A stretch of DNA of 64,000 bases, from assembly GCA_050250895.1 (NCBI GenBank), contig JBFWNU010000004.1, positions 590,934-654,933 of the forward strand. The letters are read 5' to 3'. A model generated the notes under the pieces. The model saw only the letters and a list, made by a program, of their open reading frames with translations. It ran no database searches and was not told where the DNA came from. This DNA is from Vulcanimicrobiota bacterium. GTDB lineage: Bacteria; Vulcanimicrobiota; Xenobia; Xenobiales; JADMJV01. This document shows positions 1 to 15,532 of this stretch, piece after piece. The stretch's first letter is position 1; every line of letters begins with the position of its first letter. The position numbers and the translations under genes are program-made.

Positions 1-15
1 TGGCCGAGAACAAAT

Positions 16-45
16 AAAAAAACCACCCGGAGGCGACCCGGGTGG
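16..45 (-). terminator. Intrinsic terminator of the repeat-protein operon
   Basis: Perfect 8-bp stem CCACCCGG (23-30) / CCGGGTGG (38-45) with a 7-nt loop, followed on the minus strand by T7 (A-run 16-22). Lies just after the stop at 55. Confidence 0.85.
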
Positions 46-54
46 CGAGGAGAT

Positions 55-1188
55 TCACTTCTTGGCGTTGGACCACAAGACTTTGTTGTCTTCGCCAAGG
101 ACTCGGAGGTTTTCCACACCGTTGACCTTGATTTGGCTGCCTCCTTTCCCCTGAGAGTAGAGTACTTTTCCGTCGGCTCCGACCAGGGAAAAGTTCTGGC
201 CGTTGCCGTTGATGTCGGCTGAATCCTTACCAAGCCCGCCATTGAGAGAGACCTTGTCGCGGCCCTGGCTGACGTCGTAGGTCAGATGATCGTTGCCCCA
301 GCCTCCATTCATCTCGATTTTGTCGTTGCCCCGGCCGCCGCCGGCGCGAAGTTCATCGTTACCCAGTCCTCCTTTCTGGACGATATGATCGTTGCCGTTG
401 CCGCCCGAGGCGGCCAGTTTATCATTGCCCCATCCTCCTCTTTGTTCGATGTCGTCGCGGCCGCGGCCGCCGGTAGCCAATTGCTCATCGTTGCCCAGGC
501 CACCGCGCTGGCGGATCCGGTCACTACCGTCGCCACCGTCGGCCACTTGCTGGTCGTTGCCCAGGCCGCCGTGCTGGTCGATGCGATCCCGGCCGCGCCC
601 GCCCAGCCCGACCTGGAAGTCGTCGCCCCAGCCGCCGCGCTGGCTGATGTGGTCGTTGCCGCCATCACCGGAGGCATACTGCTGATCGCGTCCCAGGCCA
701 CCCCGCTGGTGGATGTGGTCGTTGCCGCCGCCAGTCACGGCGGCCTGCAGGTCGTCACCCAGGCCGCCGCGCTGGTGCACACGATCGGCCCCGGCGCTGC
801 CGCCGGCAATCTGGGTGTCGCTGCCCCAACTGCCACCCTGCGAGACCCGCCCGCCGTTGGTGTTGACCTGATAAGGGCCTTTGAACCCCTCGGGGTTGGC
901 CACCGCCAGAGCTGACGAGCCGTTGTGGGCGGTAGCCGCGGCGGTGCCGTCATTGGCCGCCGCCAGGGCGAAGTTGAAGCCGCCCATAATGTCGTTGAGG
1001 TTGCGGTTGAGTAGCTGATTGATGGTGAACTTGCCGTTCTGGTTCCAGCCCAGCGACAGCCCCAGGGCGGTGCCACCCGGGCCGGCCTGGGCCAGGGCCC
1101 CGGCCGAGTTGGCCGTCGACCCGGCCGCGGCCGTGCCCTTGTTCTCGGCCTGGGTGAAGGCCAGCGGAAGTTGGTTAGCGATCAACAT
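55..1188 (-). CDS. RTX-like (GGxGxD) Ca-binding repeat protein with N-terminal Ala-rich repeats
   Basis: About 16 tandem 11-aa units such as QRGGLGNDEQL/ATGGRGRDDIE. C-terminal 'IKVNGVENLRV' resembles RTX-type C-termini. SD TAAGGAG precedes the ATG. Confidence 0.8.
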   Translation of the reverse strand: MLIANQLPLAFTQAENKGTAAAGSTANSAGALAQAGPGGTALGLSLGWNQNGKFTINQLLNRNLNDIMGGFNFALAAANDGTAAATAHNGSSALAVANPEGFKGPYQVNTNGGRVSQGGSWGSDTQIAGGSAGADRVHQRGGLGDDLQAAVTGGGNDHIHQRGGLGRDQQYASGDGGNDHISQRGGWGDDFQVGLGGRGRDRIDQHGGLGNDQQVADGGDGSDRIRQRGGLGNDEQLATGGRGRDDIEQRGGWGNDKLAASGGNGNDHIVQKGGLGNDELRAGGGRGNDKIEMNGGWGNDHLTYDVSQGRDKVSLNGGLGKDSADINGNGQNFSLVGADGKVLYSQGKGGSQIKVNGVENLRVLGEDNKVLWSNAKK

Positions 1189-1198
1189 GGCGTGCTCC

Positions 1199-1357
1199 TT
1201 ACTTGTGACGAATCTCGATGACGATCTCGCCGGGGCCGGCCACCGCCTCGGCTTTGGCTCCCCCTGAAGCCGAGGCGATGGCGATCGATCCCTGGCAGTG
1301 CTCTGGCATGACCAGAGGCCGGCTGGCTAGCAGTTTCTTGATCCACTCGCGATCCAT
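1199..1357 (-). CDS. Unannotated 52-aa protein (MDREWIKKLLASRPLVMPEHCQGSIAIASASGGAKAEAVAGPGEIVIEIRHK)
   Basis: Hand-translated. ATG overlaps the upstream stop (TAATG), GGAGG lies 6-7 nt upstream, and its TAA is part of the next gene's SD. Contains a copy of the neighbours' repeat. Confidence 0.75.
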   Translation of the reverse strand: MDREWIKKLLASRPLVMPEHCQGSIAIASASGGAKAEAVAGPGEIVIEIRHK

Positions 1358-2343
1358 TAGCGACCTCCCGCATTGCTGTCGGCACGACCGAACAAGAGGG
1401 CGTCGGCCACGGCTCCACCGCCCCAGTCGGCCCGGCTGCGGGCTGACGAGAACAGGTCGGCGCGAGCCACCGAGTTGGAGCCGTGGAAAGCGCTGGCATC
1501 GGCACTCGACCAGTCATCGGCCTGAGCGGCGGCCCCGCTCCGATTGGCGGCCAGGGCGTTGGCGCTGGAACGGTCGTCGGCGTCGGCGAAGGCCTGGGAG
1601 TGGAAGTCGGCTCGACTGGTAGCCCGCGAGCCGTCGTCGGCTACCGCATCGGCCCGAGACAGGCCGGTAGCGTGGGCGCGAGCGCTGGAATGGTCGGAGG
1701 CGAAGGCGTTGGCCAGCGAGTCGATGCTGGGGCCGGTCGAGCTGTCGTCGGCGATGGCGGTGGCGTTGGAGTGGTTGATGGCGCCAGCGTTGGCAAACGA
1801 GGCCACGTTGGCGTTCGAGTCCGCCCGGGAATGGTTGATGGCGTTGGCCGTGGCGCCCGAGCCGGCGTTGGCCCTGGCATTGGCCGAGGAGAACCAGTCG
1901 GCGTTGGAGCTGGCGCTGGAGTTGTTGGTGGCGGTCGAGGTGGCCCGCGACAGGTCGTCGGCCCTGGCCGAGGCGCTCGAGTTGTTGCTGGCCGTGGCCC
2001 GCGAGCTGGACAGGTCGGTGGCTCGGGAGACCGCCGTCGAGTTGTTGGAGGCGCTGGCGTTCGAGCTGCTATGATTGGCCGCCGAGGCGACCGAGGTGGA
2101 GCCGTTTCGGGCCGTCGAGGTGGCCGAGCTGCCGCCGCTGGCGCTCGACACGGCCAGGTTGCCGCCGCTCATCGCGTTGCTCAGCACGCTGTTGATGCCA
2201 GAGTTGACGGCCCAGCCCGATTTCCAGGGCAGCCCGGAGCCACCGGCCTGGGTCGAGGCGGCGCCGCCGGTCTGAGTGGGAGCGGCCACGCGAGCGGTGG
2301 GGCGGGCGGTCTGGGCGGGAGAGTTCTGAATTGCTAGAGCCAT
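1357..2343 (-). CDS. Ala/Ser/Asn/Asp-rich decapeptide-repeat protein (predicted beta-solenoid)
   Basis: About 25 repeats of A-x-x-x-S-x-[AS]-x-[AS]-x (ASNNSSASAR, ADDLSRATST, ADWFSSANAR...). Strong SD AAGGAGG. No Sec signal peptide. Confidence 0.8.
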   Translation of the reverse strand: MALAIQNSPAQTARPTARVAAPTQTGGAASTQAGGSGLPWKSGWAVNSGINSVLSNAMSGGNLAVSSASGGSSATSTARNGSTSVASAANHSSSNASASNNSTAVSRATDLSSSRATASNNSSASARADDLSRATSTATNNSSASSNADWFSSANARANAGSGATANAINHSRADSNANVASFANAGAINHSNATAIADDSSTGPSIDSLANAFASDHSSARAHATGLSRADAVADDGSRATSRADFHSQAFADADDRSSANALAANRSGAAAQADDWSSADASAFHGSNSVARADLFSSARSRADWGGGAVADALLFGRADSNAGGR

Positions 2344-2379: not shown

Positions 2380-2444
2380 CAGAATAGGCCACCGCATGAC
2401 GTGCTCGATAAAATCGGATCAAAAATTGTAAACGGCATGTAAAC
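2380..2444 (-). promoter_or_regulatory. Promoter with tandem GTTTACA boxes (copy 1 of shared motif)
   Basis: GTTTACA-N4-GTTTACA-N11-GATTTTATCG-N4-CGTC-N9-CCTATTCTG. Same spacing as at 10835-10899. Confidence 0.65.
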
Positions 2445-2658
2445 TTCAGGTGAAACTTGCAGGCGGGGTTGGCTGAGATACCTGAGAAAACGGAGCAGCA
2501 CCCACCGGGGGAGCCCCGGCTTCGATCACCGCAACATTGACCAAACAGGCCGCCACGGCACTTGCCGGGGACCGAGCCTACCACAGGACTCGAGTCGGCT
2601 GGGAAGAAATCAGAGACCGTGTTTGCGAGGTCGGGGCGACGACGCAAACGGGGAGGTC

Positions 2659-3473: not shown

Positions 3474-3695
3474 ATGATAAAAACGTTAACCAAGCATGGG
3501 AACAGTCACGCCTTGATCCTCGACCGCGCCATAATGGAATTACTCGAGATTGACGGCAATACGCCGATCAAGATCACTACGGACGGGAAACAGCTCATCC
3601 TGACGCCGATTCGCGAGCCTCAAACGGACCTAAAGAAAGCCCTTACCCGGGTGAACCAACGTCACGGTGGAGCCCTCCGGCGTCTGGCCGAGTAG
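3474..3695 (+). CDS. AbrB/MazE-family antitoxin-like DNA-binding protein
   Basis: KHGNSHALIL...ITTDGKQLILTP signature. GGAGG SD. Confidence 0.85.
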   Translation: MIKTLTKHGNSHALILDRAIMELLEIDGNTPIKITTDGKQLILTPIREPQTDLKKALTRVNQRHGGALRRLAE

Positions 3696-3767
3696 TTCGT
3701 CTTCAGGGGTCGATGACTGGCGTTCTACCCTGACGGAGAAAATCGGCCGTGGCAACCTTATCGACCA

Positions 3768-3891
3768 CCCAGGCGACCTGCGGGCTGTAGACGTCCGGCC
3801 CACGGCTCCAACGGCAAGCCTCGCGCAGTGCCCTCGCAACCCGAGCGAGTCCCCACGGCGATCCGCCGTTGAGAATGGGTGCAATGCCTTG
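3768..3891 (+). repeat. Non-coding repeat A, copy 1 (124 bp)
   Basis: Matches 8347-8470 with 3 mismatches. Contains several hairpins, e.g. ACGGCG-ATC-CGCCGT. Confidence 0.9.
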
Positions 3892-3967
3892 GAAACGCCA
3901 ATTTGGAGACTCGGATGCGACCGATGGCATCCTCCTTGGCGCCCTTTTGGAGCTGCAAGACTAAGGG
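3891..3967 (+). repeat. Non-coding repeat B, copy 1
   Basis: GGAAACGCCAATTTGGAGACTC...GCAAGACTAAGGG recurs at 8938-9025 with an 11-nt insertion. Confidence 0.85.
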
Positions 3968-4049
3968 TCTGTCAGTAAGAGTCGCATTCCGGGTGTCGAG
4001 GCGCCCCTGTGGCAAGGCGCGTCTGACCGCGCATATGGCAATATGTAAG

Positions 4050-4820
4050 GGAAGCGCAACGCAGCCCCAGACTGAACTTGTCGAGACGAAAGAATTTTTT
4101 GAGAATCTCAACGGCTTGTGGATAGGACATTTGGCTGGCAAGCAGGGCCATCACTTCTTGAAGGTCAGGTAGGGCGCTGTGCTTGCCGTCTAGGCCCGCA
4201 GAAGGTCGAGAGGAACGGCAGAGTGACCACAATCGCCGTGGTAGGCGCGCTGGATCTGGATCTGGCCGAGTTTGGTCTTCACCGATTTCTTGACATCCCC
4301 CTGGAACTCGAGCTCCTGATCGCAGTCGTGGCAGCACATACGGCTGCGGTAGAACCCTTGATAATGCCCCAAGACGGCCTCCATCAGCCCGCGCCCGAGT
4401 GAGAAGACGACCTCAGGGATGAATTCCTGGAGGAGTCCGGGAAGCTCCTTCTCTTGGTTGCGAACGAGCGCTTCATTAAAGCGAAGGAATACGGTGCGAA
4501 AGCATTCCCCCGCTAGCGAGACTATCTGGTTCCAGAGGCGGTCGGCACGGCGGGGTAGTCCGACGCGCGGACCCGGGCCATTTCACGTTAGATGGGCTGC
4601 GGTTCGGCAGCCATTCGGGACTTACACTGAGTCGACTGTTCCGTAGGATTTTCGGGGATTCGATCGCGAACTTTACCGCTCGGCGTTGCACTGGCAATCG
4701 GGATGATATTCATTGTTGGCCTCCTCTTGAAGTGGGTGTTTTAGTCTACAGTCAACTTCAAGTTCGGAGGCCATTTCCTTGCCCTTCGAGAGGATCAAAC
4801 CCCACAAAATGACGTCCCAG
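4050..4820 (-). mobile_element. Truncated, frameshifted IS transposase relic (ISKra4-like); boundaries approximate
   Basis: Fragments CCHDCDQELEFQGDVKKSVKTKLGQIQIQRAYHGDCGHSAVPLDLL and PDLQEVMALLASQMSYPQAVEILKKF. ATG 4713 with GGAGG SD inside an inverted repeat (4718-4772). Internal stops; no catalytic C-terminal half. Confidence 0.6.
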
Positions 4821-4893
4821 AGGGTTTACCGAGAAATCGGATCAGCAACCAATAGCACTTGACAATACGTGATCGGAAAACTACTATCGCATC

Positions 4894-5367
4894 ATGTCTC
4901 GCAGTGACGTTATCTGTGCGTGTTGCCATCAGGAAGTGTATCGAAGCGATGAAACGTACGCGGGCCTATCCGGTGGTGCTTGCATCGAACTCGACCTCGA
5001 TGAAGATCTTGAGCTATACCGAAGACTTGTGCAAAGGGCCTCAGGTTTTCTCGAAATCTGGTGGCGCTCACCCTATTCCAAGGGCGAAGGGGGCAGTCTT
5101 GAGAAGGCGAAGATTGTTGAAGATGGGCATCACGGTCAATTCGATTTGGCTTTCTGTTCCACGATTTGTCTTCGTTCCTACTTGAATTCACGCGTGGATG
5201 CTCTCGAGGGCGTTGTCCAAAGTTGGTATCTAAGTCGTGTTCGGTTCACCCTGGAGCAAGGGGATGATTCAAAGGCGATCAGCGAATGGCAGAGCTATTT
5301 CGGGTGCTCTCGACAAGAGGCCGAGGAAGTTGTTGCGAATTTGAAAGACGGCAATACTTCACAGTAG
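4894..5367 (+). CDS. Hypothetical protein (Cys motifs; C-terminal L7/L12-CTD-like helix pair)
   Basis: Lower GC than the core genes. CACC and FCSTICLR motifs. KAISEWQSYFGCSRQEAEEVV tail. TACTAT 6 nt before the ATG. Confidence 0.6.
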   Translation: MSRSDVICACCHQEVYRSDETYAGLSGGACIELDLDEDLELYRRLVQRASGFLEIWWRSPYSKGEGGSLEKAKIVEDGHHGQFDLAFCSTICLRSYLNSRVDALEGVVQSWYLSRVRFTLEQGDDSKAISEWQSYFGCSRQEAEEVVANLKDGNTSQ

Positions 5368-5467
5368 CGTTCTCCTTCGTAACTGAACGCACCGTGGCGC
5401 TGGCGCGCCCTTTGCCCCAAGAGCGCTCGTCAGGGCCGCGAGGCAGAGGCAAAGACTGCAACGGAGA

Positions 5468-5496
5468 AGGGCGTGACCGTCGCCGAAAGGCGCTCG
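5468..5496 (+). repeat. 29-bp hairpin repeat C, copy 1
   Basis: AGGGCGTGACCGTCGCCGAAAGGCGCTCG. Copy at 7489-7517 has 2 mismatches. GAAA tetraloop. Confidence 0.75.
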
Positions 5497-5624
5497 GGCG
5501 CAGTTCAGACCACGTTGAACCTGATGGAACTGCGAACGAAACGAGCGCGCCCGGGGGCGACGGCTCAGCGACCCCCACAGCCAGAAAAGGTCTGGTATCG
5601 GGGGTACTTCTCCGTCGCCGCAAC

Positions 5625-6683
5625 TTAGCCAGCTCGAGCCCATTCCAGCAGCCATTCCAATAGCCCGCTCTCTCGCTCGCGTTCAAGCTCGCGCCCGCGA
5701 CGGTCGCGCCAGACCAGCCCCTGGGGAGCAACCCCGCTCACTTGCAGGATGCCTTTGTGGATGTTCTTGTGGCAGCGCGAGCACACCACGACGAGATTCT
5801 CTGGCACCGTCGGTCCGCCCCGACAGTAAAAGACTACGTGATGCACATCGAGCCAGAGTCGGTGCGGGCAACCCGGACAAGAGCAGCGGTAGCCATCCCG
5901 CCGCAGCACGGCCCGGCGCTGGGCGGAAGTCGCCTGCCGCTTGCTGGGATTGAACCTCAACCGACCGGCCAACTGCAACTTCGTCTCGCCCGGACACACG
6001 TGTGTCTGCATTGCCAGCGCCTCGACCGGAGCGACCAGGTCCTGGGCGGCTTCAACCTTGAGTTGCTCCACCTGGCCGCCCAGAAAGTCGGCCAGGATCC
6101 ATTCGAACGCCTCGGCCGGATTGACCGTGCCGCCGTTGTCTCTCGAGATTACGGTCACCGCTCGCGACCACAGCTCGGACACCTCGGGAGCGACCCGAAA
6201 ACGAAGCTCGACCTCTTCTACCATATTCAGGGCCGCCTCGGCCGGAGTGTCACCGCGATTGGCCCCGCTCACTAAACGAGCCAGGCGATGAGGCTTGAGG
6301 CGCACCGCCAGGTCAAGCCAGGCCTCTTCGGTCTCGGGCGTCACGATGCGGGTGACTACGCGCAGGTTGGACCAGCAGATTCGGTTCTCTTCGCAGGCTT
6401 TGGAAAACAGCGGCAGCTCTTCGAGATGGCCGGCGATCCGCATCGAATCTAGTGCCTCGCGCTTCTCTACTTTGATCAGCCGGGCGAAATGGATAGCCGA
6501 GTGGCAGCCGGTCTCGGCGCAAAAATCGGTGCGCTCGATAACCAATAGACATCGTCCCAGCAGGATGCGAGTCAGGGCCAGGGTGTTGGCCAGGCGACGG
6601 ATCACCCTTTCCAGCCGCTCGTGAGGGAGCTTGCTCAAGTTTTCGACGGTCCAGAATTCGCGTTGCTTTTGATCGGTAATCAT
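5625..6683 (-). CDS. DUF222-like / HNH endonuclease
   Basis: RRDGYRCSCPGC...LDVHHVV...GG.T.PENLVVVCSRCHKNIH. Helical N-terminal region. Likely start MITDQ at 6683. Confidence 0.85.
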   Translation of the reverse strand: MITDQKQREFWTVENLSKLPHERLERVIRRLANTLALTRILLGRCLLVIERTDFCAETGCHSAIHFARLIKVEKREALDSMRIAGHLEELPLFSKACEENRICWSNLRVVTRIVTPETEEAWLDLAVRLKPHRLARLVSGANRGDTPAEAALNMVEEVELRFRVAPEVSELWSRAVTVISRDNGGTVNPAEAFEWILADFLGGQVEQLKVEAAQDLVAPVEALAMQTHVCPGETKLQLAGRLRFNPSKRQATSAQRRAVLRRDGYRCSCPGCPHRLWLDVHHVVFYCRGGPTVPENLVVVCSRCHKNIHKGILQVSGVAPQGLVWRDRRGRELERERESGLLEWLLEWARAG

Positions 6684-6689
6684 AAGTCC

Positions 6690-6719
6690 ATGATAGCCTT
6701 TGCCCCCGTTGTTCGTCAA
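6690..6719 (-). promoter_or_regulatory. Sigma70-like promoter of the HNH gene (leaderless)
   Basis: TTGACG-N18-TATCAT-N6-ATG. Confidence 0.55.
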
Positions 6720-7053
6720 AGATTCGATGCGGCCCAAACCCTTATTTTACAGGCAATTGCGCATTTTCTAAACGATGATTATTCGAGCTTTTCGGGGCCG
6801 AAATGAAGTTTTCTTCAAACACGGCTGTTCAAGTGCCTGAGGGGGTCCTGGAGGGGCTATCACGAGCAGTTTAGGGGCGAGGCTCCTCCCGGGCGGTTGG
6901 GCGGCCGCATCTGAAAAAAGTTTGACACACGTGTGCGCGGCGCGGGGTTAGACGATCTGGTGGAGTCGTTAGCCACGACAATGATGGCAACATGATCGCA
7001 CGGGTTCTCGACCCGAGCGGTACGCCAGCGACGACCAACTTCGAGCTGGATGT

Positions 7054-7395
7054 TCATGAGCGTCTCAACATTTCTTCCATGTGATGGCGAGTCAAAAGCG
7101 ATTTTCAGGGCGTCAAGCTCCCGGGTATTCAGCTTGGAAAGCTGCTGTAGAAGGCCGGCTAGCTCTACGTCTTCGACCGCCATCCCAGCGATCACACCTT
7201 TATCATCCAACAGCAGTTGTTCTACGGGACTTCGAGAGCTTCGGCGACCTTTTCCAAAGTGCCCATGCGAGGATTCACACGATCCGTTTCCCAGCTGGCG
7301 ACATAACTCTGCGAAACGCCAACGAGATCAGCCAGTTCCCGCTGCTTGAGGCCTTTCTGCTTGCGGTGTTTCGCGATGATCTGACCGATGCTCAC
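7054..7395 (-). pseudogene. XRE-family HTH regulator, frameshifted
   Basis: GTG 7395 gives SIGQIIAKHRKQKGLKQRELADLVGVSQSYVASWETDRVNPRMGTLEKVAEALEVP*. Continues after a 1-nt shift as EQLLLDDKG...LLQQLSKLNTRELDALK. Confidence 0.75.
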
Positions 7396-7488
7396 CTCTT
7401 AGGAAATCCTGTAAGAATGACGTGACTCCTCGTAGCCTAGTCACTAAACGAAATAAGGTCGCGGTTACTCCAGGAATGTAATTACAAG

Positions 7489-7517
7489 AGGGCGTGAGCG
7501 TCGCTGAAAGGCGCTCG
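7489..7517 (+). repeat. 29-bp hairpin repeat C, copy 2
   Basis: AGGGCGTGAGCGTCGCTGAAAGGCGCTCG. Confidence 0.75.
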
Positions 7518-7615
7518 AGAGAGAGCCAACTCGCCAGATTCACCAACCCTTCCCTTCCTCGCCTTTTGCGGCTCGGCGGCCGAGTGCCGACTCCGGGAAC
7601 TTGGAGCCGCCGTGC

Positions 7616-8506
7616 CTAGATATAGAACCAGCCATCCTCTTCCTTGAGTCCGGGCCCTTCGAAAGTGAGCCGCTCCCGGACCGGTCGACCGTTGGTGTCG
7701 GTTCCGTCGTAGGGCACCGATTGGCCGTAGTGGTCGGCCAGGGTCGTTCCATCCACCCGCTCGACATAGACGGCGTGCCCAAAGCTGCTCACGACCGTGC
7801 TCTCTCCCAACAGTGGATCCTCACCCGCCATCGCTCGCACCCTGGTCTCGCTCCCCACTCCGAGATAATTGGCGCAGTGGCGCGGACGTTGACCCGAGCG
7901 CAGATCCTCGAGAGCTCGCTCGAAGCGCTGGTGCTCACTCAGCCAACCCTCGACCAACCCCATTTTCAGATCAGCCGCCGGCATCAGCTGGGCCCGTCGG
8001 GCGGCGGCCACCGCGTAGGCGAAGATGGCAAAGGTTTTGGTGGGCGAGGCCGCTCCCTTGAGGCAGGCAGAATCGCGAGCCAGGGCCACTTCTTCCTCAG
8101 TAAGACTGACCACCGCCCCGTCGCGTAGAGTGACCCGAAAGCCATCCTCGAGCCGCTTGACCGACTTGAAGAGCTTGCGACCGAACACTTTCATGGCGGC
8201 TTTGACGGTAGCCACCAACGCACAGTTTCCCTGACTGGTCTGAGCGAAGTCGACCACCAGGGCATCGGTCTCGAGAGGCAGTTGGAAGGCCTCGGCGAGC
8301 AGGCGGTCTTCCTGCTCGCTCCAATCGGGTGCAAAAACCCGGCCATCCCAGGCGAACTGCGGGCTGTAGACGTCCGGCCCACGGTTCCAACGGCAAGCCT
8401 CGCGCAGTGCCCTCGCAACCCGAGCGAGTCCCCACGGCGATCCGCCGGTGAGAATGGGTGCAATGCCTTGATACGGCAACGTTTTGAGTGCGACGCCCCC
8501 AACCAT
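7616..8506 (-). CDS. Papain/calpain-like cysteine protease-like protein (5' end runs through repeat A; true start uncertain)
   Basis: FAQTSQGNCALVATVKAAM (Q...C) and GHAVYV (His) motifs. Confidence 0.55.
   Translation of the reverse strand: MVGGVALKTLPYQGIAPILTGGSPWGLARVARALREACRWNRGPDVYSPQFAWDGRVFAPDWSEQEDRLLAEAFQLPLETDALVVDFAQTSQGNCALVATVKAAMKVFGRKLFKSVKRLEDGFRVTLRDGAVVSLTEEEVALARDSACLKGAASPTKTFAIFAYAVAAARRAQLMPAADLKMGLVEGWLSEHQRFERALEDLRSGQRPRHCANYLGVGSETRVRAMAGEDPLLGESTVVSSFGHAVYVERVDGTTLADHYGQSVPYDGTDTNGRPVRERLTFEGPGLKEEDGWFYI
8347..8470 (+). repeat. Non-coding repeat A, copy 2
   Basis: Direct repeat of 3768-3891. Confidence 0.9.
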
Positions 8507-8937
8507 TGTCGGCTATCTCACGAACTTTGCGCAACTTGTCTAGTGGGATTTACCCCCTGGTCTTCGCACGTGCCCATTTAGCGTCAACGACTGGGCGGAC
8601 GCGAGCAGACGGTCCTGCTCAAAGCCGCCGTGGTCCAGATTCTGAACTTCAATACCTCGAACGTCTTCACAAGATGAAATCAAAGTGATCTCAACAGTCG
8701 GGACATCTTTCTGGAGTACACGCACGTCCCCAGCTGGGAAGCGACAGACGAGAGCATCTGTGTGCGAGACGGTCTGGTGATCAGTGCCATTGGGCGCCTT
8801 CGTGTGGAAGCTTGTGAGCTCAAGCCGGGAGAGAACTTTTCGCCAAGTTCTCTGAAGAAGTCGCTCTCTGACATTGGGTGGCAACAGACAGAAGAGGTCT
8901 CTTTTTACAACATCATCCGAACCACCTATCTTTGCCG

Positions 8938-9025
8938 GGAAACGCCAATTTGGAGACTCCAGGTCAACGAGGATGCGACCGCGGGCATCTTCCTTGGCGC
9001 CCTTTTGCAGTTGCAAGACTAAGGG
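8938..9025 (+). repeat. Non-coding repeat B, copy 2
   Basis: Direct repeat of 3891-3967. Confidence 0.85.
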
Positions 9026-9120: not shown

Positions 9121-9516
9121 CTAGCCGACGATACTACCGCCGGTGAAGTCGTTCTCGAGGCGGTCCATGTTGTCTTCGGTGATGCCGATCAGCTCGGCCA
9201 TCACCCGCGAGCCCTCTTCAGCCAGGCGCAACGCCTCGGCCGCTGCCTCGGGGTTGCGGTCGTGAGCGTAGCCACGCAACAGCTCGACCGCCTCATAGAC
9301 TAGCTCGAGCGAATCCTTGGCATCCTCCATCAACTGCTGCTCTTCCGGAGCCTTGTCGCCGACCTGGATCTGATCGAGCTGTTCATACCACCCTTTCACC
9401 TGGGCCTCGAACTGGTCGAGGTTGCTCAGAAAAGTGGGACCGTCGAGGTGACCCTGGTCGAACTGCTGCACCAGCGTGGCGGCGATGTGATAAGGGCTGT
9501 TGGGATACTGCTCCAC
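9121..9516 (-). CDS. Hypothetical acidic alpha-helical protein
   Basis: 131-aa ORF with typical codon usage and amphipathic helices. Confidence 0.7.
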   Translation of the reverse strand: MEQYPNSPYHIAATLVQQFDQGHLDGPTFLSNLDQFEAQVKGWYEQLDQIQVGDKAPEEQQLMEDAKDSLELVYEAVELLRGYAHDRNPEAAAEALRLAEEGSRVMAELIGITEDNMDRLENDFTGGSIVG

Positions 9517-9689: not shown

Positions 9690-10820
9690 ATGAGCCTGGA
9701 GGACTTCCTCAAAGAGCAGAGTGGCGGAGGAGGCGAATCGGGCCGATTCACCGTCAACCACGCCCGCGCCCTCGAGCTGATGCGGACCTATCAGCTACCC
9801 GAGCCTCGCGCCTACATCCTGAAGCTGGTGCAATGGGCTGTGGCTTGCCAACCCCGCCTGATCGAAGTCAGCGCGGATCGCGAGCACGTGAGCGTGCGCC
9901 ACGACGGGCAACCGGTGGCCGACGAGGTTCTGGCCGCCATCCTGGATGCCAGAGTCGACTTTCACCACCTTTCGCGAGGGCTCTACGGGGCCCTGGGGCT
10001 GGCGCCGGCCGAGCTCTGCCTGACTACGGCCGGCCGGCGCTACGAGTTGGTTTCGGGCAAGCAAGAGAAGGTGGCGGGGGAACCAGAGACGGTCACGGTC
10101 TTGGGACTGCGAAAGCGCCCTTTAGAAACGAGCCCCATGGTTCGGCGCGCCCTGCGACAGCGTTGGGCAACCATGAGCGTGGAAGGCCCTCTGCAGACCA
10201 TGATTTGGGATGCCACCGGTCTGGCCGGTCTGGAGGCGAGTCTGCTGAGAACCTTTTGTTACTGGTGCAAGGTGCCCTTGCGGTTGAATGGCAAGTTTCT
10301 CAACCGGCCGGGGGACGCCAACTTCGATTACGTCTGGGAGGATGGTGTGCTGGCCATGACCGATCACAACCTCACCCGGGGAAACAGCCTCTTCGTCTGC
10401 CACTTCGGCGAGGGACCTGCCGAGGTGCTGGCAGGCTGCCCCAGCCAAAGACTCAAGCTGGTCTGGGCCGAAGGGGAGCGGGAAATCGAACCCGAGGCCC
10501 GGGAAACGCTGCCCCACATCACCATCAACGGGGGCCCGGTAGCGGCCGCCCTGGGCTACAGCCGGCACTTTGCCGCCGCGGGCCTCGGTCGGCAAATCTA
10601 CTTCCTGAAGGATGGAGTGGTCATCGACAGCTTCAGCGAAACGTCTCGCCGCAGCAGCTTCGCGTTCTTCTCGGCCGGTCCCCTTCGGTGCGGCGCCGAC
10701 GGCTTCGGGTTGCTGCGCAACGCCGAATTCGAGGCCTACGTGGCCGAGCTGCGTCAGCGGTTGGACTTTTTCGACGCCTTCTTCGCCAAGCGCTCCAAGA
10801 CGTGGTTTCTTCCCATGTGA
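9690..10820 (+). CDS. Hypothetical protein with degenerate GHKL/Hsp90-like N-terminal domain
   Basis: GRFTVN..RALELMRTYQLPEP.AYILKLVQWAV...IEV...VSVRHDG. AAGGAG SD. Confidence 0.6.
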   Translation: MSLEDFLKEQSGGGGESGRFTVNHARALELMRTYQLPEPRAYILKLVQWAVACQPRLIEVSADREHVSVRHDGQPVADEVLAAILDARVDFHHLSRGLYGALGLAPAELCLTTAGRRYELVSGKQEKVAGEPETVTVLGLRKRPLETSPMVRRALRQRWATMSVEGPLQTMIWDATGLAGLEASLLRTFCYWCKVPLRLNGKFLNRPGDANFDYVWEDGVLAMTDHNLTRGNSLFVCHFGEGPAEVLAGCPSQRLKLVWAEGEREIEPEARETLPHITINGGPVAAALGYSRHFAAAGLGRQIYFLKDGVVIDSFSETSRRSSFAFFSAGPLRCGADGFGLLRNAEFEAYVAELRQRLDFFDAFFAKRSKTWFLPM

Positions 10821-11936: not shown

Positions 11937-13142
11937 ATGAGGTTCCGCTACTGGGCGTCCGCCGATGGCGGGCAGGCCCGGGATGGGGTCGTGGAAGCCC
12001 GCTCCCTGCTCGAGGCCCGTACCAAACTGTCGCGCCAGGGCTTGACGGTGCTCGTGCTCGAACCTGAGGGCCGGGTCGAGCCCGACCAGCCCGAGGCTCG
12101 CAAGCAAATGGCGGGATTGCTCTCGGCCGACGACCGCATGCTGTTCCACCTCCAGTTGTCGACTCTGCTGGCCAGCGGAGTGCCCATCGTGGAGGGGCTC
12201 GAGGTGCTCAGCCGCAGCGACTCGCCGGCCCTCAACGCGGTGGTCGAGGAGCTGTGCGTCAGGCTCTGCAAAGGTCAGACCATGGCCGCGGCCATGGCGT
12301 CCTGTGGAGCCTTCGGACCGGTCGAGATCAGTCTGGTGCAAGTGGCTGAAGAGACCGGCTCACTGGCCCAGATGTTCTCGCGCCTGGCCAGCCGATTGCG
12401 GGCCCTGGTCACGCGCCGCAATGACCTCGTCTCGGCCCTGGCCTATCCGGCCGTCATCCTGGTGGTGTGCGTGGGGCTGTTGGGGTTGCTGGTGGGCTAT
12501 ATGCTGCCTCAGTTCACCAGCATCTTCCAAAGCCTGGGCAGCGACCTGCCCTGGCTGACCCGAATGCTGTTGGGCCTGACCTCGGGGCCGTGGCTGCCGA
12601 TGGGGGCCCTGCTGGTGCTGATGGCGGGCTTCTCGCTGTGGTATTCGAGTCGCCGCGGAGGAAGCGGCCAACTGCTGCTCGAGAAGTTTCTCTACGAGGC
12701 ACCGCTGGTCGGACCGCTGGCTTTAAAGGCGCTGTTAGCCAGGCTGGGAAGCGATCTGGCCCTGATGGTCTATCTGGGTGTTCCCCTCGACAAGGCGCTG
12801 GGTCTTTTGGGGCGCCCGAGCAGCGGCTATTACTGCATGGACGAGGCCCTGCGTATGACCCGGGTCGAGCTGCAAGCCACCGGCGACCTGGCCCAGGCCT
12901 TTCGACAGTCGCCGCTCTTTCCCGAGGCCTTTGTGCAGATGGTGGTGGTGGGCCTGGAGGTGGGCCGGCTGGGCAATTTTCTCGACCAATATGCCAGGCT
13001 CGCCAACCTCGAGACCGAACTCGCCCTCGAGAACCTGTTGGGGTTGCTCGAGCCGCTCATCCTGGTGATTCTGGGCCTGGGAGTGGGTCTGGTGGTTTTG
13101 TCCGCGTTCTTACCAATGTACCAGGTGTTGTCCCAATTTTGA
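11937..13142 (+). CDS. pilC: Type IV pilus/T2SS platform protein PilC/GspF
   Basis: QLSTLLASGVPIVEGL, AEETGSL, SALAYP, LLEPLIL..., AFLPMY. Two T2SSF domains. Confidence 0.9.
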   Translation: MRFRYWASADGGQARDGVVEARSLLEARTKLSRQGLTVLVLEPEGRVEPDQPEARKQMAGLLSADDRMLFHLQLSTLLASGVPIVEGLEVLSRSDSPALNAVVEELCVRLCKGQTMAAAMASCGAFGPVEISLVQVAEETGSLAQMFSRLASRLRALVTRRNDLVSALAYPAVILVVCVGLLGLLVGYMLPQFTSIFQSLGSDLPWLTRMLLGLTSGPWLPMGALLVLMAGFSLWYSSRRGGSGQLLLEKFLYEAPLVGPLALKALLARLGSDLALMVYLGVPLDKALGLLGRPSSGYYCMDEALRMTRVELQATGDLAQAFRQSPLFPEAFVQMVVVGLEVGRLGNFLDQYARLANLETELALENLLGLLEPLILVILGLGVGLVVLSAFLPMYQVLSQF

Positions 13143-15532
13143 TGCGAGCGGTTCTGGCCACGGTCTGCCTGGCCCTGGGGGTGGTCTGCCTGGTGGGGGG
13201 CCCTGGCCCGCGCGATGGCCCTCTGCTGCTGGTGTTCGCGGTCTTCGCCATGGCCCTCGAGGCCCGGGCCGTGGCCCTGCCGGTGGCCGGAGTGGTGTCG
13301 CTGGCCTGGGTCTTCGTGTTGGGGGCGGCGATCGCTGCCGGCCTGGGCACGGCCGCCGCCGTGCTTTTGCTGCTGGCGGTATTGACCGTTCGTTTCGCCT
13401 TAAGCCCGCGGCGCAGCCTGGAAGACTTCGTGATGGACGCCCTGCCCGCCCTGGCGGCCTCGGCCAGCCTGTTGCTGGTGCCGGGCGAGCTGGTCGGGCG
13501 GATGGTCATGGCGGCGGTGGTCTGGGCCGCCACCATCGTGTTTTTACCGGGGTTGCTGGTGCCCGAGGTCCACCCCGACCTGCAGGTGGCCTGGGGACGG
13601 GCCCGCAACGAAGTGTTGGCAGCCCTGGCCAGCCTGGGGCTGGCGGGCGGCGTGGTCGCCTTGCTGGCTGGCCAGCAGCGCTGGTCAGTGTTGCTGGTGG
13701 GAGTCATCTTGCTGGCTCTGTCCCGACCCTTACGCCTGGCCGCCGAAAGCCCCTTGCCCTCAGAGCTGCGCGCCACCCATCACCACCTCCAGCGGGCCCT
13801 CGACACCAGCCAGGCGCTCGAGAGTTCGCTGCGCCGGGTCGAGAAAGAGAAGGCCACCGCCAGCGCCGAGCTGCGCCTGTTGCGGCGGCTGGGCCAGAAG
13901 GCCGGTCGCAGTCAGAGTTTTGGCGAACTGGCCGCGGCCCTGGTGGAGGTGGCCCAAGAAGTGGCTCCGCTGCGTTCGGCCGCGCTCTTTCTCGAGGACG
14001 GGCGGGCCTGCTATTGCGACAGCCCCGATCGCGAGCGCCTCGAGTCGGCCAGCCTGCTCGAGCTTGACGAGCCTCTGGTGGAGAGGTGCCGGCGCGACGG
14101 CCAGGCCCTCTATGGCAAGCCTCCCGGTGAGAGCATCTTTCGGGGCGATGCGGTGGGGGCGGCCTTGCCGGTGGGGCGAGCTGTGCTCTATCTTGGCCGG
14201 GGCGAGGGCGAGTTCGACGCCAGCCAGCGCCAGCGCCTCGAGCTGCTGGCCGAGTCGGCCGCCGGTTGGATTCAGATGGCCCGCGCCCGCGACGCCGAAC
14301 AGAGCGCCCGCACCGCCACCGAGACGGCCCTCGAGCGCCTGAGCAGCTGGGCTGACCGCCTTTCGGCCCTGCTCAACGGCGCCCGCATTCTGGCTGGCGA
14401 GCTCGAGCCGGCCCGCCTGTTCGAGCATCTCGAGGACATGCTGCGAGCGGTCTTGCCCCACCAGCGCGGTTGTTTCTTGCGCCTGGCCGACGGGCGCCTC
14501 GAGCCCCAGCGGGTCTGGCCCGAGGCGGTCGACCCCGAGGCGGCTCTGGCCCTGGGTGAAGCCATTCTCCAGAACGGCCGTCCGCTGCTCATCGAAGAGG
14601 CCGAGTCGAGCCGGTTTGCTCCCCTGTACGCCGGCCAACAGAGCTTTTTGGGAGTGCCGGCCGAGTCGCAGTACGGTCTGGCCGGGGTACTGATGGTAGC
14701 CGGCAGCCGGCCCGGCCTGTACCAGCGCGAAGATCAGGAGTTTCTCTATCTGGTGGGCCTGCTCACAGCCGTGGCCTATCGGGCCGCCAACACCCACCAT
14801 CGCCTGAAAGAATCGCAGGCGCAACTGGTTCAAGCCGGCAAGATGGCGGCAGTGGGCCAGCTGGCGGCCGGGGTGGCCCACGAGCTGAACACTCCCCTGG
14901 GAGCGGTCATGGTGCAGCTGGGTTCGGCCAGCCTCAACCTCGAGCGCGAACGCTACGACCGGGCCGCGGATAAACTTGCCTCGGCCGAGAAAGCCGCCGA
15001 GAAGGCTCGCGAGATCATCGCCAAGCTGCTGTTCTATTCGCGCGAGGCTCAACGGGGGCGGCGCCGGGTCGACCTCAACCAGGTGGTCAACGACACCCTG
15101 GCCCTGCTGGGCTCGCAGCTGACCCACGACGAAGTCGTGGTGCGCACCGAGCTCAGCGAGCTGCCCAGTGTTCTGGCCAACCAGAACGAGCTGCAGCAGG
15201 TGGTCACCAACCTGTTGCTCAACGCCCGCGACGCCGTGCTCGAGCCTACTGCCAGAGGCAAGGAGATCGTGGTCTCGACCGGCTTTGACGGGCAGGCGGT
15301 GAGGCTGGCCGTGGCCGACCAGGGGCCGGGCCTGGCCCCCGAGGTGGTCGACCGGCTGTTCGAGCCCTTCTTCACCACCAAGCCGGTGGGCAAAGGCACG
15401 GGCCTGGGCCTGTCGGTGAGCCAGCAGATCGTGACCCAGCACGAAGGCAGTCTGAGCGCCGCCAATCGGCCCGAAGGCGGAGCCGTCTTCGAGGTGCGCC
15501 TGGCCCCGGCCCGGGGGGAGGAGCCGCGATGA
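13142..15532 (+). CDS. Membrane sensor histidine kinase with GAF domains
   Basis: Multi-TM N-terminus. AGVAHELNTPL (H box), [31 protein letters not shown] overlaps the pilC stop. Confidence 0.92.
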   Translation: MRAVLATVCLALGVVCLVGGPGPRDGPLLLVFAVFAMALEARAVALPVAGVVSLAWVFVLGAAIAAGLGTAAAVLLLLAVLTVRFALSPRRSLEDFVMDALPALAASASLLLVPGELVGRMVMAAVVWAATIVFLPGLLVPEVHPDLQVAWGRARNEVLAALASLGLAGGVVALLAGQQRWSVLLVGVILLALSRPLRLAAESPLPSELRATHHHLQRALDTSQALESSLRRVEKEKATASAELRLLRRLGQKAGRSQSFGELAAALVEVAQEVAPLRSAALFLEDGRACYCDSPDRERLESASLLELDEPLVERCRRDGQALYGKPPGESIFRGDAVGAALPVGRAVLYLGRGEGEFDASQRQRLELLAESAAGWIQMARARDAEQSARTATETALERLSSWADRLSALLNGARILAGELEPARLFEHLEDMLRAVLPHQRGCFLRLADGRLEPQRVWPEAVDPEAALALGEAILQNGRPLLIEEAESSRFAPLYAGQQSFLGVPAESQYGLAGVLMVAGSRPGLYQREDQEFLYLVGLLTAVAYRAANTHHRLKESQAQLVQAGKMAAVGQLAAGVAHELNTPLGAVMVQLGSASLNLERERYDRAADKLASAEKAAEKAREIIAKLLFYSREAQRGRRRVDLNQVVNDTLALLGSQLTHDEVVVRTELSELPSVLANQNELQQVVTNLLLNARDAVLEPTARGKEIVVSTGFDGQAVRLAVADQGPGLAPEVVDRLFEPFFTTKPVGKGTGLGLSVSQQIVTQHEGSLSAANRPEGGAVFEVRLAPARGEEPR

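What the first reader, a model, noticed from the sequence alone, without database searches (positions are those of the whole stretch)
55..2343. Three-gene operon of paralogous repeat proteins: candidate new beta-solenoid/amyloid fibre system
Seen: gene 1 (328 aa) consists of about 25 decapeptides A-x-x-x-S-x-[AS]-x-[AS]-x, with one 7-aa insertion. Gene 3 (377 aa) has a homologous N-terminal block (LNRNLNDIMGGFNFALAAANDGTAAATAHNGSSALAVA vs INSVLSNAMSGGNLAVSSASGGSSATSTARNGSTSVASA) fused to RTX-like repeats. The 52-aa gene 2 carries the same unit (GSIAIASASGGAKAEAVAGPG). The three genes are tightly coupled and end in a clean terminator. None has a Sec signal. Established: curli (CsgA/CsgB) and Fap fibres use paralogous major and minor repeat subunits, and alternating small residues form flat beta-solenoids, as in some ice-binding proteins. 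Inference: this could be a major subunit, a cap/nucleator and a Ca-binding adhesin tip that co-polymerise. The repeat is not the curli motif.
Basis: partly seen in the sequence, partly recalled or inferred. Interest (0 to 1): 0.82.

Follow-up and report, generated by a model that had tools for sequence, protein, structure and literature searches.

The report
New curli-like solenoid repeat operon
Three co-transcribed genes encode a previously undescribed, lineage-restricted family of alanine/serine repeat proteins predicted to fold like curli fibre subunits, but with none of the curli export machinery, so their role as a fibre remains unproven.

Summary
Three minus-strand genes (328, 52 and 377 aa) have their own ribosome-binding sites, overlapping or near-abutting ends and one clean terminator.

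- **Gene 1:** it has 26 decapeptides A-x-[A/S]-x-A-x-[N/D]-x-S-x. Self-similarity is strongest at lag 20.
- **Fold:** AlphaFold2 (pLDDT 79.7) gives a 7-residue strand per decapeptide. The nearest solved fold is a curli CsgA (Z 22.1).
- **Family:** there is no Pfam, NCBIfam or PDB sequence match. The N-terminal block was found in only 10 of 401 genomes of the phylum sample.
- **Gene 3:** it carries that family N-terminal domain (34.8 bits against 10.1 or less for shuffles). This is fused to a widespread 11/22-residue GGxGxD module, which is not the 9-residue RTX repeat. No such fusion was seen in the 10 relatives' loci.
- **Gene 2:** a gene 2-like ORF follows the gene 1 homologue in 4 of 10 loci.
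- **New partner:** a ~130-aa four-helix-bundle gene sits beside the gene 1 homologue in 10 of 10 loci. Here it lies 6.8 kb away, behind inserted mobile DNA.

No protein has a Sec signal, and CsgG was not found in the genome.

Verdict: a real, new beta-solenoid-type family. The architecture is curli-like but curli membership fails. Fibre or amyloid behaviour and export are untested.

The parts
2425..2454 (-). Promoter-like site (TTCACC-18-TACAAT) about 80 nt upstream of the gene 1 start
   Evidence: Consensus scan, (2 sites found against 0.4 expected). This is a pattern match only.
1357..2343 (-). Gene 1, 328 aa: family N-terminal block followed by a decapeptide-repeat solenoid
   Evidence: ORF. 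Codon score and GC3 of 0.863. Homologues in 10 of 61 relatives' genomes. AF2 model.
2155..2343 (-). Gene 1 residues 1-63: disordered N-terminus plus the family N-terminal block (predicted helix at residues 50-58)
   Evidence: Alignments A1 and A4. The HMM scores it at 19.4 bits against a shuffle maximum of 9.0. pLDDT is 32-56 for residues 1-60.
1360..2154 (-). Gene 1 residues 64-328: 26 decapeptides A-x-[AS]-x-A-x-[ND]-x-S-x (about 13 twenty-residue coils). The conserved 7-aa insertion lies at 1720-1740.
   Evidence: AF2 gives a 7-residue strand plus a 3-residue turn per unit.
1199..1357 (-). Gene 2, 52 aa: a shortened member of the small partner family conserved downstream of gene 1 homologues. 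The core has 2-3 strand-turn units.
   Evidence: ORF. The start overlaps the gene 1 stop. Homologues follow gene 1-like genes in L015, L016, L017 and L019, which is 4 of 10 loci.
895..1188 (-). Gene 3 residues 1-98: the same family N-terminal block and the first rungs
   Evidence: The HMM scores it at 34.8 bits against a shuffle maximum of 10.1. It matches gene 1-like proteins of G001, G014 and G004.
208..768 (-). Gene 3 residues 141-327: 17 units of 11 residues (22-residue super-repeat) with 14 exact GGxGxD motifs
   Evidence: The module is found in 44 of 61 relatives' genomes. One homologue is named 'calcium-binding protein' by NCBI.
55..207 (-). Gene 3 residues 328-377 plus the stop codon: conserved C-terminal domain of the GGxGxD module
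   Evidence: It is conserved with the module in paralogs and relatives. There is only a sub-threshold DUF3060 hit (E 0.029).
12..46 (-). Intrinsic terminator: 10-bp stem, 5-nt loop and T-run
   Evidence: centroid -18.6 kcal/mol.
9121..9516 (-). Helper: a 131-aa four-helix-bundle protein of the type found beside gene 1 homologues elsewhere
   Evidence: An HMM of 11 helpers gives E 4.5e-27, the second-best hit in the genome. AF2 pLDDT is 86.3 with four helices. It is adjacent to the gene 1 homologue in 10 of 10 relatives' loci.
3768..9025 (.). Probable inserted mobile DNA that separates gene 1 from the helper, bounded by direct repeats (3768-3891/8347-8470 at 98%; 3913-3967/8971-9025 at 91%)
   Evidence: Repeats. 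An HNH endonuclease (5625-6737) and a Cro/C1 HTH (7222-7395) lie inside. GC content is lower here.

Best explanation
**Shown**
- The three genes form one transcription unit.
- They belong to a small family without any Pfam, NCBIfam or PDB relative. In the genomes searched, the family is confined to one large-genome lineage, probably Eremiobacterota-like.
- Gene 1 is an N-terminal family domain followed by 26 decapeptides. Positions 1, 3, 5 and 9 are almost invariably Ala/Ser. Position 7 is Asn or Asp in 15 of the 26 units. The even positions vary.

**Predicted**
- Each decapeptide forms a 7-residue strand plus a 3-residue turn.
- Two decapeptides make one 20-residue coil of a flat two-sheet beta-solenoid, with an Ala/Ser steric-zipper core and Ser and Asn/Asp at the arcs.
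- This is the architecture of curli, built from a different and shorter motif.

**Inferred**
- Gene 2, the small gene conserved downstream in part of the family, imitates the first three rungs and then ends in a Gly-Pro-Gly breaker. It probably acts as an end-cap or primer that controls end-to-end stacking.
- Gene 3 is a local chimera. It joins the family N-domain and first rungs to a common 11/22-residue GGxGxD (calcium-binding type) module. It can therefore share whatever the N-domain does (partner recognition, docking or export) while displaying a different body.
- The four-helix-bundle helper found beside every examined relative probably holds or escorts the N-domain before assembly. Here it has been displaced by inserted mobile DNA.
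- Nothing has a Sec signal, so I take the proteins to leave the cell by a non-classical route and to serve as structural surface or matrix material.
- True amyloid-like polymerisation is possible but not shown.
For: - **Operon anatomy:**
- **Periodicity and in/out conservation pattern:**
- **Structure:** AF2 model with pLDDT 79.7, pTM 0.74 and a regular strand per decapeptide. The Atlas holds its own predicted model of the same protein with pTM 0.65.
- **Fold comparison:** the best solved match is curli CsgA 8c50_A (Z 22.1, rmsd 8.2, 281 aligned). It stands above two-sheet beta-roll adhesin heads (Z 17.7 and 16.8).
- **No sequence relative:** Pfam and NCBIfam, PDB sequences, 1.84 billion representatives (3 hits, one a near-identical fragment).
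- **Narrow distribution:** 10 of 61 genomes and 10 of 401.
- **Extracellular context elsewhere:** the same decapeptide type sits inside giant proteins with Big_9, cadherin-like or Calx-beta domains.
- **Gene 3 N-domain membership:**
- **Gene 3 module:** widespread (44 of 61 genomes) and named calcium-binding by one source.
- **Gene 2 conservation:** 4 of 10 loci. Its best profile alignment falls on the first rungs.
- **Helper:** adjacent in 10 of 10 loci. A copy lies in the window, and direct repeats bound the intervening mobile DNA.
- **No Cys** in genes 1 and 3.
Against: - AF2 is known to give confident but unreal beta-solenoids for repeat sequences (PMC11795689, abstract read). The alignment had only 8 rows, and rmsd to CsgA is high (8.2 A).
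- Foldseek found no significant match (best E 0.24).
- No signal peptide occurs in any of the proteins. There is no CsgG. No secretion genes are conserved next to the short forms. A cytoplasmic role therefore fits equally well.
- The gene 2 to gene 1 similarity is not significant. Gene 2-like ORFs are missing from 6 of 10 loci.
- The helper belongs to a broad family present in 58 of 61 genomes in several copies. It has a generic bundle fold, so a dedicated chaperone role is only an inference from adjacency.
- Relatives have non-repeat ends that look like caps, which argues against open-ended polymerisation.
- There are no expression data.
Confidence: 0.5

Rival explanations
1. This is a true curli-like functional amyloid system. 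Gene 1 is the major fibre subunit and polymerises outside the cell. Gene 2 nucleates or caps it. Gene 3 joins the fibre through the shared N-terminal rungs and presents a calcium-binding adhesive tip.
For: - The best solved fold match is curli CsgA.
- The core is a centrosymmetric small-residue zipper with polar ladders.
- Genes 1 and 3 share the N-block.
- Gene 2 aligns best to the first rungs.
- The genes are translationally coupled.
- In this genome, gene 1 lacks the C-terminal non-repeat tail of its relatives. That could leave an open end.
Against: - There is no Curlin_rpt match.
- No Sec signal and no CsgG.
- Only 2% of CsgA-bearing genomes lack CsgG (PMC10192328, passages read).
- No gene 3 fusion was seen in the 10 relatives' loci.
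- Relatives have cap-like ends.
- Nothing run here shows stacking between subunits.
Confidence: 0.2
2. These are cytoplasmic beta-solenoid proteins. They could be a bactofilin-like scaffold or filament, or a pentapeptide-repeat-like binding surface. The helper and gene 2 would be cytoplasmic assembly factors, and nothing is exported.
For: - None of the 11 family members, gene 2 or the helper has a signal peptide or membrane segment.
- No export genes are conserved beside the short forms.
- Known cytoplasmic solenoids exist (recalled knowledge, not tested here).
Against: - There is no Pfam match to Bactofilin or Pentapeptide.
- The same repeat type sits in giant proteins with extracellular-type Ig, cadherin or Calx-beta domains.
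- Gene 3 carries GGxGxD calcium-type repeats. These are typical of proteins that fold outside the cell (established for RTX proteins; an inference here).
- Genes 1 and 3 have no Cys.
Confidence: 0.15
3. These are low-complexity, largely disordered proteins. They would be young or fast-evolving repeat ORFs, and the solenoid would be an artefact of the structure predictor.
For: - The AF2 bias is documented (PMC11795689, abstract read).
- A and S together make up 45% of gene 1.
- Word-indexed and HMMER library searches find almost nothing.
- None of the 8 gene 1-family and gene 3 sequences asked about is in the protein collection as an exact sequence.
Against: - There is strict in/out periodic conservation (A 26/26 at position 5, S 23/25 at position 9) with variable even positions.
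- The conserved 7-aa insertion and the N-block are shared with relatives at 34-42% identity.
- Codon score is positive and GC3 is high.
- Partners are conserved.
- A second predicted model (the Atlas's own) has pTM 0.65.
Confidence: 0.1
4. This is an ice-binding or ice-nucleating (or otherwise crystal-binding) flat solenoid face.
For: - The predicted solenoid is flat and regular.
- Antifreeze and ice-binding solenoids appear among weaker fold matches: 3p4g with Z 13.8, and several.
- Ice-nucleation proteins also lack classical signals (recalled, not tested).
Against: - No TxT or TxN ladder is present.
- The outward positions are variable and often charged.
- The only sequence hit to an antifreeze protein is chance-level (E 0.83).
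Confidence: 0.03

Closest known systems
Curli subunits CsgA/CsgB (type VIII secretion functional amyloid), e.g. Pontibacter korlensis CsgA, PDB 8c50
   Same: - The predicted architecture matches: stacked strand-arc-strand coils forming two sheets.
- The core is a near-centrosymmetric zipper of small residues flanked by polar (Ser, Asn) ladders.
- Paralogous proteins are encoded side by side.
- It is the best solved fold match (Z 22.1).
   Different: - The coil is 20 residues, against 23 +/- 5 for curli.
- The motif is A-x-[AS]-x-A-x-[ND]-x-S-x, not N-$-Psi-$-Psi-$-Q with X-G-X-X arcs (PMC10192328, passages read).
- There is no Curlin_rpt hit, no Sec signal and no CsgG.
- The family has its own N-terminal domain, a four-helix partner and a small partner that curli lacks.
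RTX calcium-binding beta-roll proteins (type I secretion substrates)
   Same: - Gene 3 has 14 GGxGxD turns in tandem.
- It has no N-terminal signal and no Cys.
- A homologue is named calcium-binding protein by NCBI.
   Different: - The period is 11/22 residues, not 9/18.
- There is no HemolysinCabind hit.
- The NCBIfam Ca_rpt_SMc04171 hit scores only 17.9 bits against a cut-off of 625.
- No ABC, MFP or TolC genes lie beside it.
Two-sheet beta-roll heads of trimeric autotransporter adhesins (YadA, UspA1, BpaC) and the Marinomonas Ca-dependent antifreeze beta-helix
   Same: They are the next-best fold matches (Z 17.7, 16.8, 13.1 and 13.8). They also have short repeats that form two-sheet rolls.
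   Different: - There is no sequence relation.
- Those proteins are Sec-dependent, and the adhesins are trimeric with coiled-coil stalks and membrane anchors.
- None of these features is present here.
Silk-like Ala-rich beta-rolls (designed (GAGAGAGQ)n; fibroin-like proteins)
   Same: - The buried face is an alternating small residue.
- A 'fibroin heavy chain-like' cluster is among the structural neighbours of the Atlas model (TM 0.65).
   Different: - That comparison is with eukaryotic or designed proteins, and no homology is implied.
- The designed-roll paper was seen only as a search listing (PMC5388506).

Membership tests
Curli (CsgA/CsgB) | Curlin repeat sequence (Pfam Curlin_rpt; N-$-Psi-$-Psi-$-Q motifs, about 23 aa per repeat) | tested here: not met
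   No Pfam family matched gene 1 at E<=1. The period is 10/20 with a different motif. The PDB sequence profile search finds no curli chain.
Curli (CsgA/CsgB) | Beta-solenoid of stacked strand-arc-strand units | tested here: met
   This rests on prediction only. AF2 gives pLDDT 79.7, and the best solved match is CsgA 8c50_A at Z 22.1. The caveat of AF2 solenoid bias applies (PMC11795689).
Curli (CsgA/CsgB) | Sec signal peptide on the subunits | tested here: not met
   No hydrophobic N-terminal segment is present (maximum 10-residue Kyte-Doolittle score <=1.51, against 2.6-2.8 in controls). No dedicated signal predictor was available.
Curli (CsgA/CsgB) | CsgG secretion channel (with CsgE and CsgF) in the genome | tested here: not met
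   PF03783 gave no match in the 99.6%-complete genome. The control search rang in 4 of 14 reference genomes. CsgE and CsgF were not searched.
Curli (CsgA/CsgB) | Amyloid properties (ThT/Congo red binding, detergent-resistant fibres) | not testable with these tools
   This needs recombinant protein.
RTX / type I secretion calcium-binding repeats (gene 3) | Tandem nonapeptides GGxGxDxUx (Pfam HemolysinCabind) | tested here: not met
   No Pfam hit at E<=1. The spacing is exactly 11 residues.
RTX / type I secretion calcium-binding repeats (gene 3) | GGxGxD calcium-binding turn | tested here: met
   There are 14 exact GGxGxD motifs. Calcium binding itself was not tested.
RTX / type I secretion calcium-binding repeats (gene 3) | Linked ABC transporter, membrane fusion protein and outer-membrane factor | tested here: not met
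   None is among the genes from about 16 kb before the window to about 22 kb into it. The rest of the genome was not searched for them.
Pentapeptide repeat proteins | Tandem A(D/N)LXX pentapeptides (Pfam Pentapeptide) | tested here: not met
   No Pfam hit. There is no excess self-similarity at lag 5 (z -3.4).
Flagellin-type export with FliS chaperone (considered for the helper) | Helper related to FliS | tested here: not met
   hhalign of the helper profile against the genome's own FliS gives probability 0.06% and E 0.74. There is no Pfam FliS hit on the helpers.
New family defined here (N-block plus A/S/N decapeptide solenoid) | N-terminal block (..F/W..DFN..L...L..I[ML]N..NLAVAVA.NGS..) | tested here: met
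   Gene 3 scores 34.8 bits and gene 1 scores 19.4 bits. Shuffles score at most 10.1 and 9.0.
New family defined here (N-block plus A/S/N decapeptide solenoid) | Adjacent four-helix-bundle helper gene | tested here: inconclusive
   The helper is adjacent in 10 of 10 relatives' loci. In the window, the helper-type gene is 6.8 kb away, behind DNA bounded by direct repeats.

The most novel reading that the evidence does not exclude
This is a CsgG-independent, Sec-independent functional-amyloid or beta-solenoid fibre system of an uncultured large-genome lineage. It would comprise an all-alanine-core 20-residue-coil subunit, a three-rung capping or priming peptide, a swappable calcium-binding body on the same docking domain, and a dedicated four-helix-bundle escort. 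That would make it a third bacterial fibre pathway beside curli and Fap.
Probability: 0.2. Interest if true: 0.8.

Novelty: new variant of a known kind. Interest (0 to 1): 0.55.

Why it matters
If the prediction holds, this is a natural two-sheet solenoid with the tightest coil and simplest core yet seen in a curli-like architecture (20 residues, Ala/Ser zipper). That would interest people who work on functional amyloids and protein materials.

It also comes with partners that no known fibre pathway uses: a four-helix bundle and a three-rung mini-protein. No recognisable export route is present. That raises the question of how such aggregation-prone proteins are handled in a phylum with almost no cultured members.

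The family has escaped annotation. It has no Pfam family, and none of the 8 sequences asked about was in the large protein collection as an exact sequence.

Tried and rejected
- **Complex prediction:** gene 1 plus gene 2, with own alignments, gave no verdict (score 0.16, mark 0.32, controls not run). This is evidence for nothing.
- **Protein searches:**
  - The word-indexed search with gene 1 found none.
  - With the N-block profile and longer proteins, it found 3 giant adhesin-like proteins only.
- **Pattern-based locus searches:** in genome contigs, searches with gene 1 and with gene 3 found no relative.
- **Sequencing runs:** no RNA holder was listed, and 5 DNA runs held only small shares of 0.05-0.06.
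- **Earlier findings of the scan:** four look-ups returned nothing.
- **Helper identity:**
  - Foldseek's best E was 0.23.
  - VIA's best Z was 10.1, to designed bundles, which is below the level that means anything for helical bundles.
  - The PDB sequence profile hit only designed proteins.
  - Comparison with FliS was negative.
- **Flagellin-like N-terminus:** relatives start 'MSINTN/MSIISN' and the genome's flagellin starts MGFRINQN. I dropped this as a mere resemblance.
- **Gene 2 as a relative of SHOCT-like/toastrack proteins:** one such protein lies beside the G046 homologue. The gene 2 HMM did not hit it at E<=1.
- **Literature:** searches for a described family with this repeat found none. 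This covers only the open-access library searched.
- **Caveat on gene calls:** calls in relatives' loci come from my own codon-score ORF picker, not from an annotation.


Full report
**What is there**

The gene 1 stop overlaps the gene 2 start (TAATG). Ten bases separate gene 2 from gene 3, and each start has a GGAGG-like motif 6-8 nt upstream.

A 10-bp GC-rich hairpin with a T7 tail follows gene 3. A promoter-like site lies about 80 nt before gene 1.

All three frames score positive in a codon model trained on long ORFs of the same genome. Gene 1 has GC3 of 0.863, while the long antisense ORF over it has 0.551. So the repeat frame is the coding one.

**The repeats**

From residue 64, gene 1 is 26 decapeptides with one 7-residue insertion (residues 202-208). 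Position counts are as follows:

| Position | Residues |
|---|---|
| 1 | Ala 22, Ser 4 |
| 3 | Ala 17, Ser 9 |
| 5 | Ala 26 of 26 |
| 7 | Asn 8, Asp 7 |
| 9 | Ser 23 of 25 |
| Even positions | variable |

Self-similarity exceeds 500 shuffles at lag 10 (z 11.1) and even more at lag 20 (z 13.5). So the true unit is a pair of decapeptides with two different turns: N-x-S and D-Phi-x-S.

Gene 3 has 17 units of exactly 11 residues (residues 141-327) with 14 exact GGxGxD motifs. The z score is 10.3 at lag 11 and 19.1 at lag 22. This is RTX-like in its turn motif but not in its period. Neither Pfam HemolysinCabind nor any other family matches above threshold.

**Relatives**

Library searches almost fail.
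- The word-indexed search found nothing.
- An exhaustive HMMER pass over 1.84 billion representatives found three proteins. One is a 90%-identical fragment. Two are giant proteins (1054 and 1678 aa) whose central region is the same A-x-A-x-A-x-[DN]-x-S-x repeat, flanked by Big_9/cadherin-like or Calx-beta domains.
- None of the 8 gene 1-family and gene 3 sequences asked about is in the big protein collection as an exact sequence. This helps explain the silence.

Six-frame searches of genomes do better.
- Gene 1 matches 10 of 61 relatives' genomes, counting its own genome. That includes 7 of 15 in the same family.
- A profile of the N-terminal block matches 10 of 401 genomes sampled across the phylum. 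One large family gave 0 of 297.
- Homologues range from 374 to 1321 aa.
- They share the N-terminal block, the decapeptides and even the 'DDR..P.IDS' insertion.

By RpoB similarity and by the taxa of helper look-alikes, the organism is probably Eremiobacterota-like (an inference). It has Omp85, flagellin and FliS but no CsgG.

**How the three genes relate**

Pairwise, genes 1 and 3 are not significantly alike (E 0.31). A profile of the N-terminal block from ten relatives, built without genes 1 and 3, tells a different story:
- gene 3 residues 1-80 score 34.8 bits (500 shuffles: at most 10.1);
- gene 1 residues 1-70 score 19.4 bits (shuffles: at most 9.0).

Gene 3 is therefore a genuine carrier of the family domain. 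The rest of gene 3 (residues ~125-375) is a module found in 44 of 61 relatives' genomes, behind many different, often low-complexity, N-termini. One homologue is named 'calcium-binding protein' by NCBI. In the ten relatives' loci, the only matches to gene 3 that fell in the gene 1 homologue's own reading frame covered its N-terminal block. No downstream gene of the gene 3 type was seen there. So this fusion looks local.

Gene 2 has homologues directly after the gene 1 homologue in 4 of 10 loci, all short forms. Those are 75-93 aa, with a helical N-terminal part and a core of three strand-turn units ending in GPGE. The window's copy is shortened. Its similarity to gene 1 is not significant (E 0.014 and 0.021). 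The best profile alignment does fall on the first three rungs of the family.

In 10 of 10 relatives' loci, a 121-156-aa gene without any Pfam family lies next to the gene 1 homologue. In three loci it overlaps or abuts it. A profile of these finds a copy inside the window at 9121-9516 on the same strand (E 4.5e-27), the second-best hit in the genome.

Between that copy and gene 1 lie an HNH endonuclease, a Cro/C1 regulator and small ORFs of lower GC content. Direct repeats of 124 nt (98%) and 55 nt (91%) bound this stretch. Without that segment, the two genes would be about 2 kb apart.

AF2 folds the helper as a four-helix bundle (pLDDT 86.3). Fold searches give only generic bundles, and it is unrelated to the genome's FliS. 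The domain is common: 58 of 61 genomes carry it in several copies. Its role as escort or chaperone rests on adjacency alone.

**Fold**

With an 8-row alignment, AF2 gives pLDDT 79.7 and pTM 0.74. It predicts a disordered N-terminus, a short helix (residues 50-58), and then one 7-residue strand plus a 3-residue turn per decapeptide. The only break is at the insertion.

Foldseek finds nothing significant (best E 0.24). An exhaustive structural alignment against 48,161 chains puts a curli subunit first: Pontibacter korlensis CsgA, 8c50_A, with Z 22.1, rmsd 8.2 A and 281 residues aligned. Next come two-sheet beta-roll adhesin heads (Z 17.7, 16.8) and other beta-helices. The Atlas's own model of the same protein has pTM 0.65, with solenoid and fibroin-like neighbours.

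The caveat is serious. AF2 is documented to produce confident, unrealistic solenoids for repeat sequences (PMC11795689, abstract read). Against that stands evidence that does not depend on any predictor. It is the strict alternation of invariant small residues with variable polar ones, which is the expected signature of strands with one buried face.

**Comparison with curli**

From passages read in PMC10192328:
- curlin repeats average 23 +/- 5 residues;
- they carry N-$-Psi-$-Psi-$-Q motifs joined by X-G-X-X arcs;
- only 2% of CsgA-bearing genomes lack CsgG.

Here the coil is 20 residues, the motif differs, there is no Sec signal and no CsgG. So it works like curli in predicted architecture but is not a member.

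**What I think it does**

My best reading (about 0.5) is a new family of non-Sec beta-solenoid structural proteins.
- The N-domain is the common handle. It could serve the helper, export or docking.
- Gene 2 is an end-cap or primer.
- Gene 3 is the same handle carrying a calcium-type repeat body.

An extracellular or surface location is favoured by three points. The repeat occurs in giant adhesin-like proteins. Gene 3 has GGxGxD repeats. Genes 1 and 3 lack Cys.

A cytoplasmic role is not excluded, because signals and export genes are completely absent. Relatives carry non-repeat C-terminal tails that look like caps. Gene 1 of this genome lacks such a tail. This is the one feature that hints at an open, stackable end.

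Rival readings and their weights:

| Reading | Weight |
|---|---|
| Full curli-like amyloid model | 0.2 |
| Cytoplasmic scaffold | 0.15 |
| Disordered low-complexity protein with artefactual fold | 0.1 |
| Ice or crystal binding | 0.03 |

**Limits**

- There are no expression data: no RNA run was listed.
- There is no usable complex prediction.
- Gene calls in relatives come from my own ORF picker.
- Helper subfamily scores are partly circular, because the profile was built from those sequences.
- The literature searches cover only the open library.

Noticed in passing
window 3768-3967 and 8347-9025 (segment between: ~4.6 kb): Direct repeats of 124 nt (98%) and 55 nt (91%) bound a lower-GC segment. 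The segment holds an HNH endonuclease (5625-6737, minus strand) and a Cro/C1 HTH (7222-7395, minus strand). An AbrB-like small ORF (3474-3695, plus strand) lies just outside it. It looks like an integrated element that split the helper from the operon. A 75-aa ORF at 3703-3930 repeats the N-terminus of the 296-aa gene at 7616-8506.
   Followed up: partly
G000:C4:589631-590950 (ends at window 17, plus strand) and window 9690-10820 (plus strand): Two paralogous genes without any Pfam family (439 and 376 aa; BLASTP E 4e-6 over the N-terminal 136 aa) flank the locus. One is convergent with gene 3. The other is divergent from the helper. A third protein with a similar-looking N-terminus (615 aa, C2:945074-946921; judged by eye, not compared) sits beside a G/N/Q-rich protein. 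Next to that is a 532-aa protein made of several helper domains.
   Followed up: partly
G000:C13:71096-71965, C1:3751810-3752442, C2:86198-87127 and the operon itself: Genes with the gene 3-type GGxGxD module tend to lie near prepilin-type (N_methyl) genes. In two cases they also lie beside a ~770-aa protein with a receiver-like N-terminus (not scanned). Of 7 loci, 3 lie within 4 kb of one of the genome's 127 N_methyl matches, against 8.7% for random positions (binomial tail 0.017). The threshold was chosen post hoc and n is small.
   Followed up: partly
L022 (G000:C7), L023 (G013:C4), L024 (G009:C215): The long forms of the gene 1 family (994-1321 aa) sit in a different, partly conserved neighbourhood. 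It holds an M16 peptidase-like gene in all three loci. Gamma-glutamyltranspeptidase occurs in L023 and L024, and a T2SS protein F gene in L022 and L023. The helper follows immediately downstream. No gene 2-like ORF is present.
   Followed up: partly
window 1483-2337 (plus strand) and 286-915 (plus strand): Long antisense ORFs (284 and 209 aa) run over genes 1 and 3. None of the 8 gene 1-family and gene 3 sequences asked about is in the large protein collection as an exact sequence. Gene callers may mis-start or mis-strand these repeat genes.
   Followed up: partly
window 18844-21897 (plus strand): A 1017-aa protein with N-terminal WD40 propellers and a C-terminal caspase (Peptidase_C14) domain. 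Upstream lie a GAF histidine kinase (12467-15532) and a 1060-aa receiver/BTAD/TPR regulator (15621-18803).
   Followed up: no
L020:7793-8770 (minus strand); L021:7164-12206 (minus strand): Two neighbours of gene 1 homologues in other genomes stand out. One is a 325-aa protein with a Pfam ATLF (lethal-factor-type metalloprotease) domain hit (E 3.9e-7, 30.4 bits, cut-off 27.4). The other is a 1680-aa protein with RHS repeats and an annexin domain.
   Followed up: no
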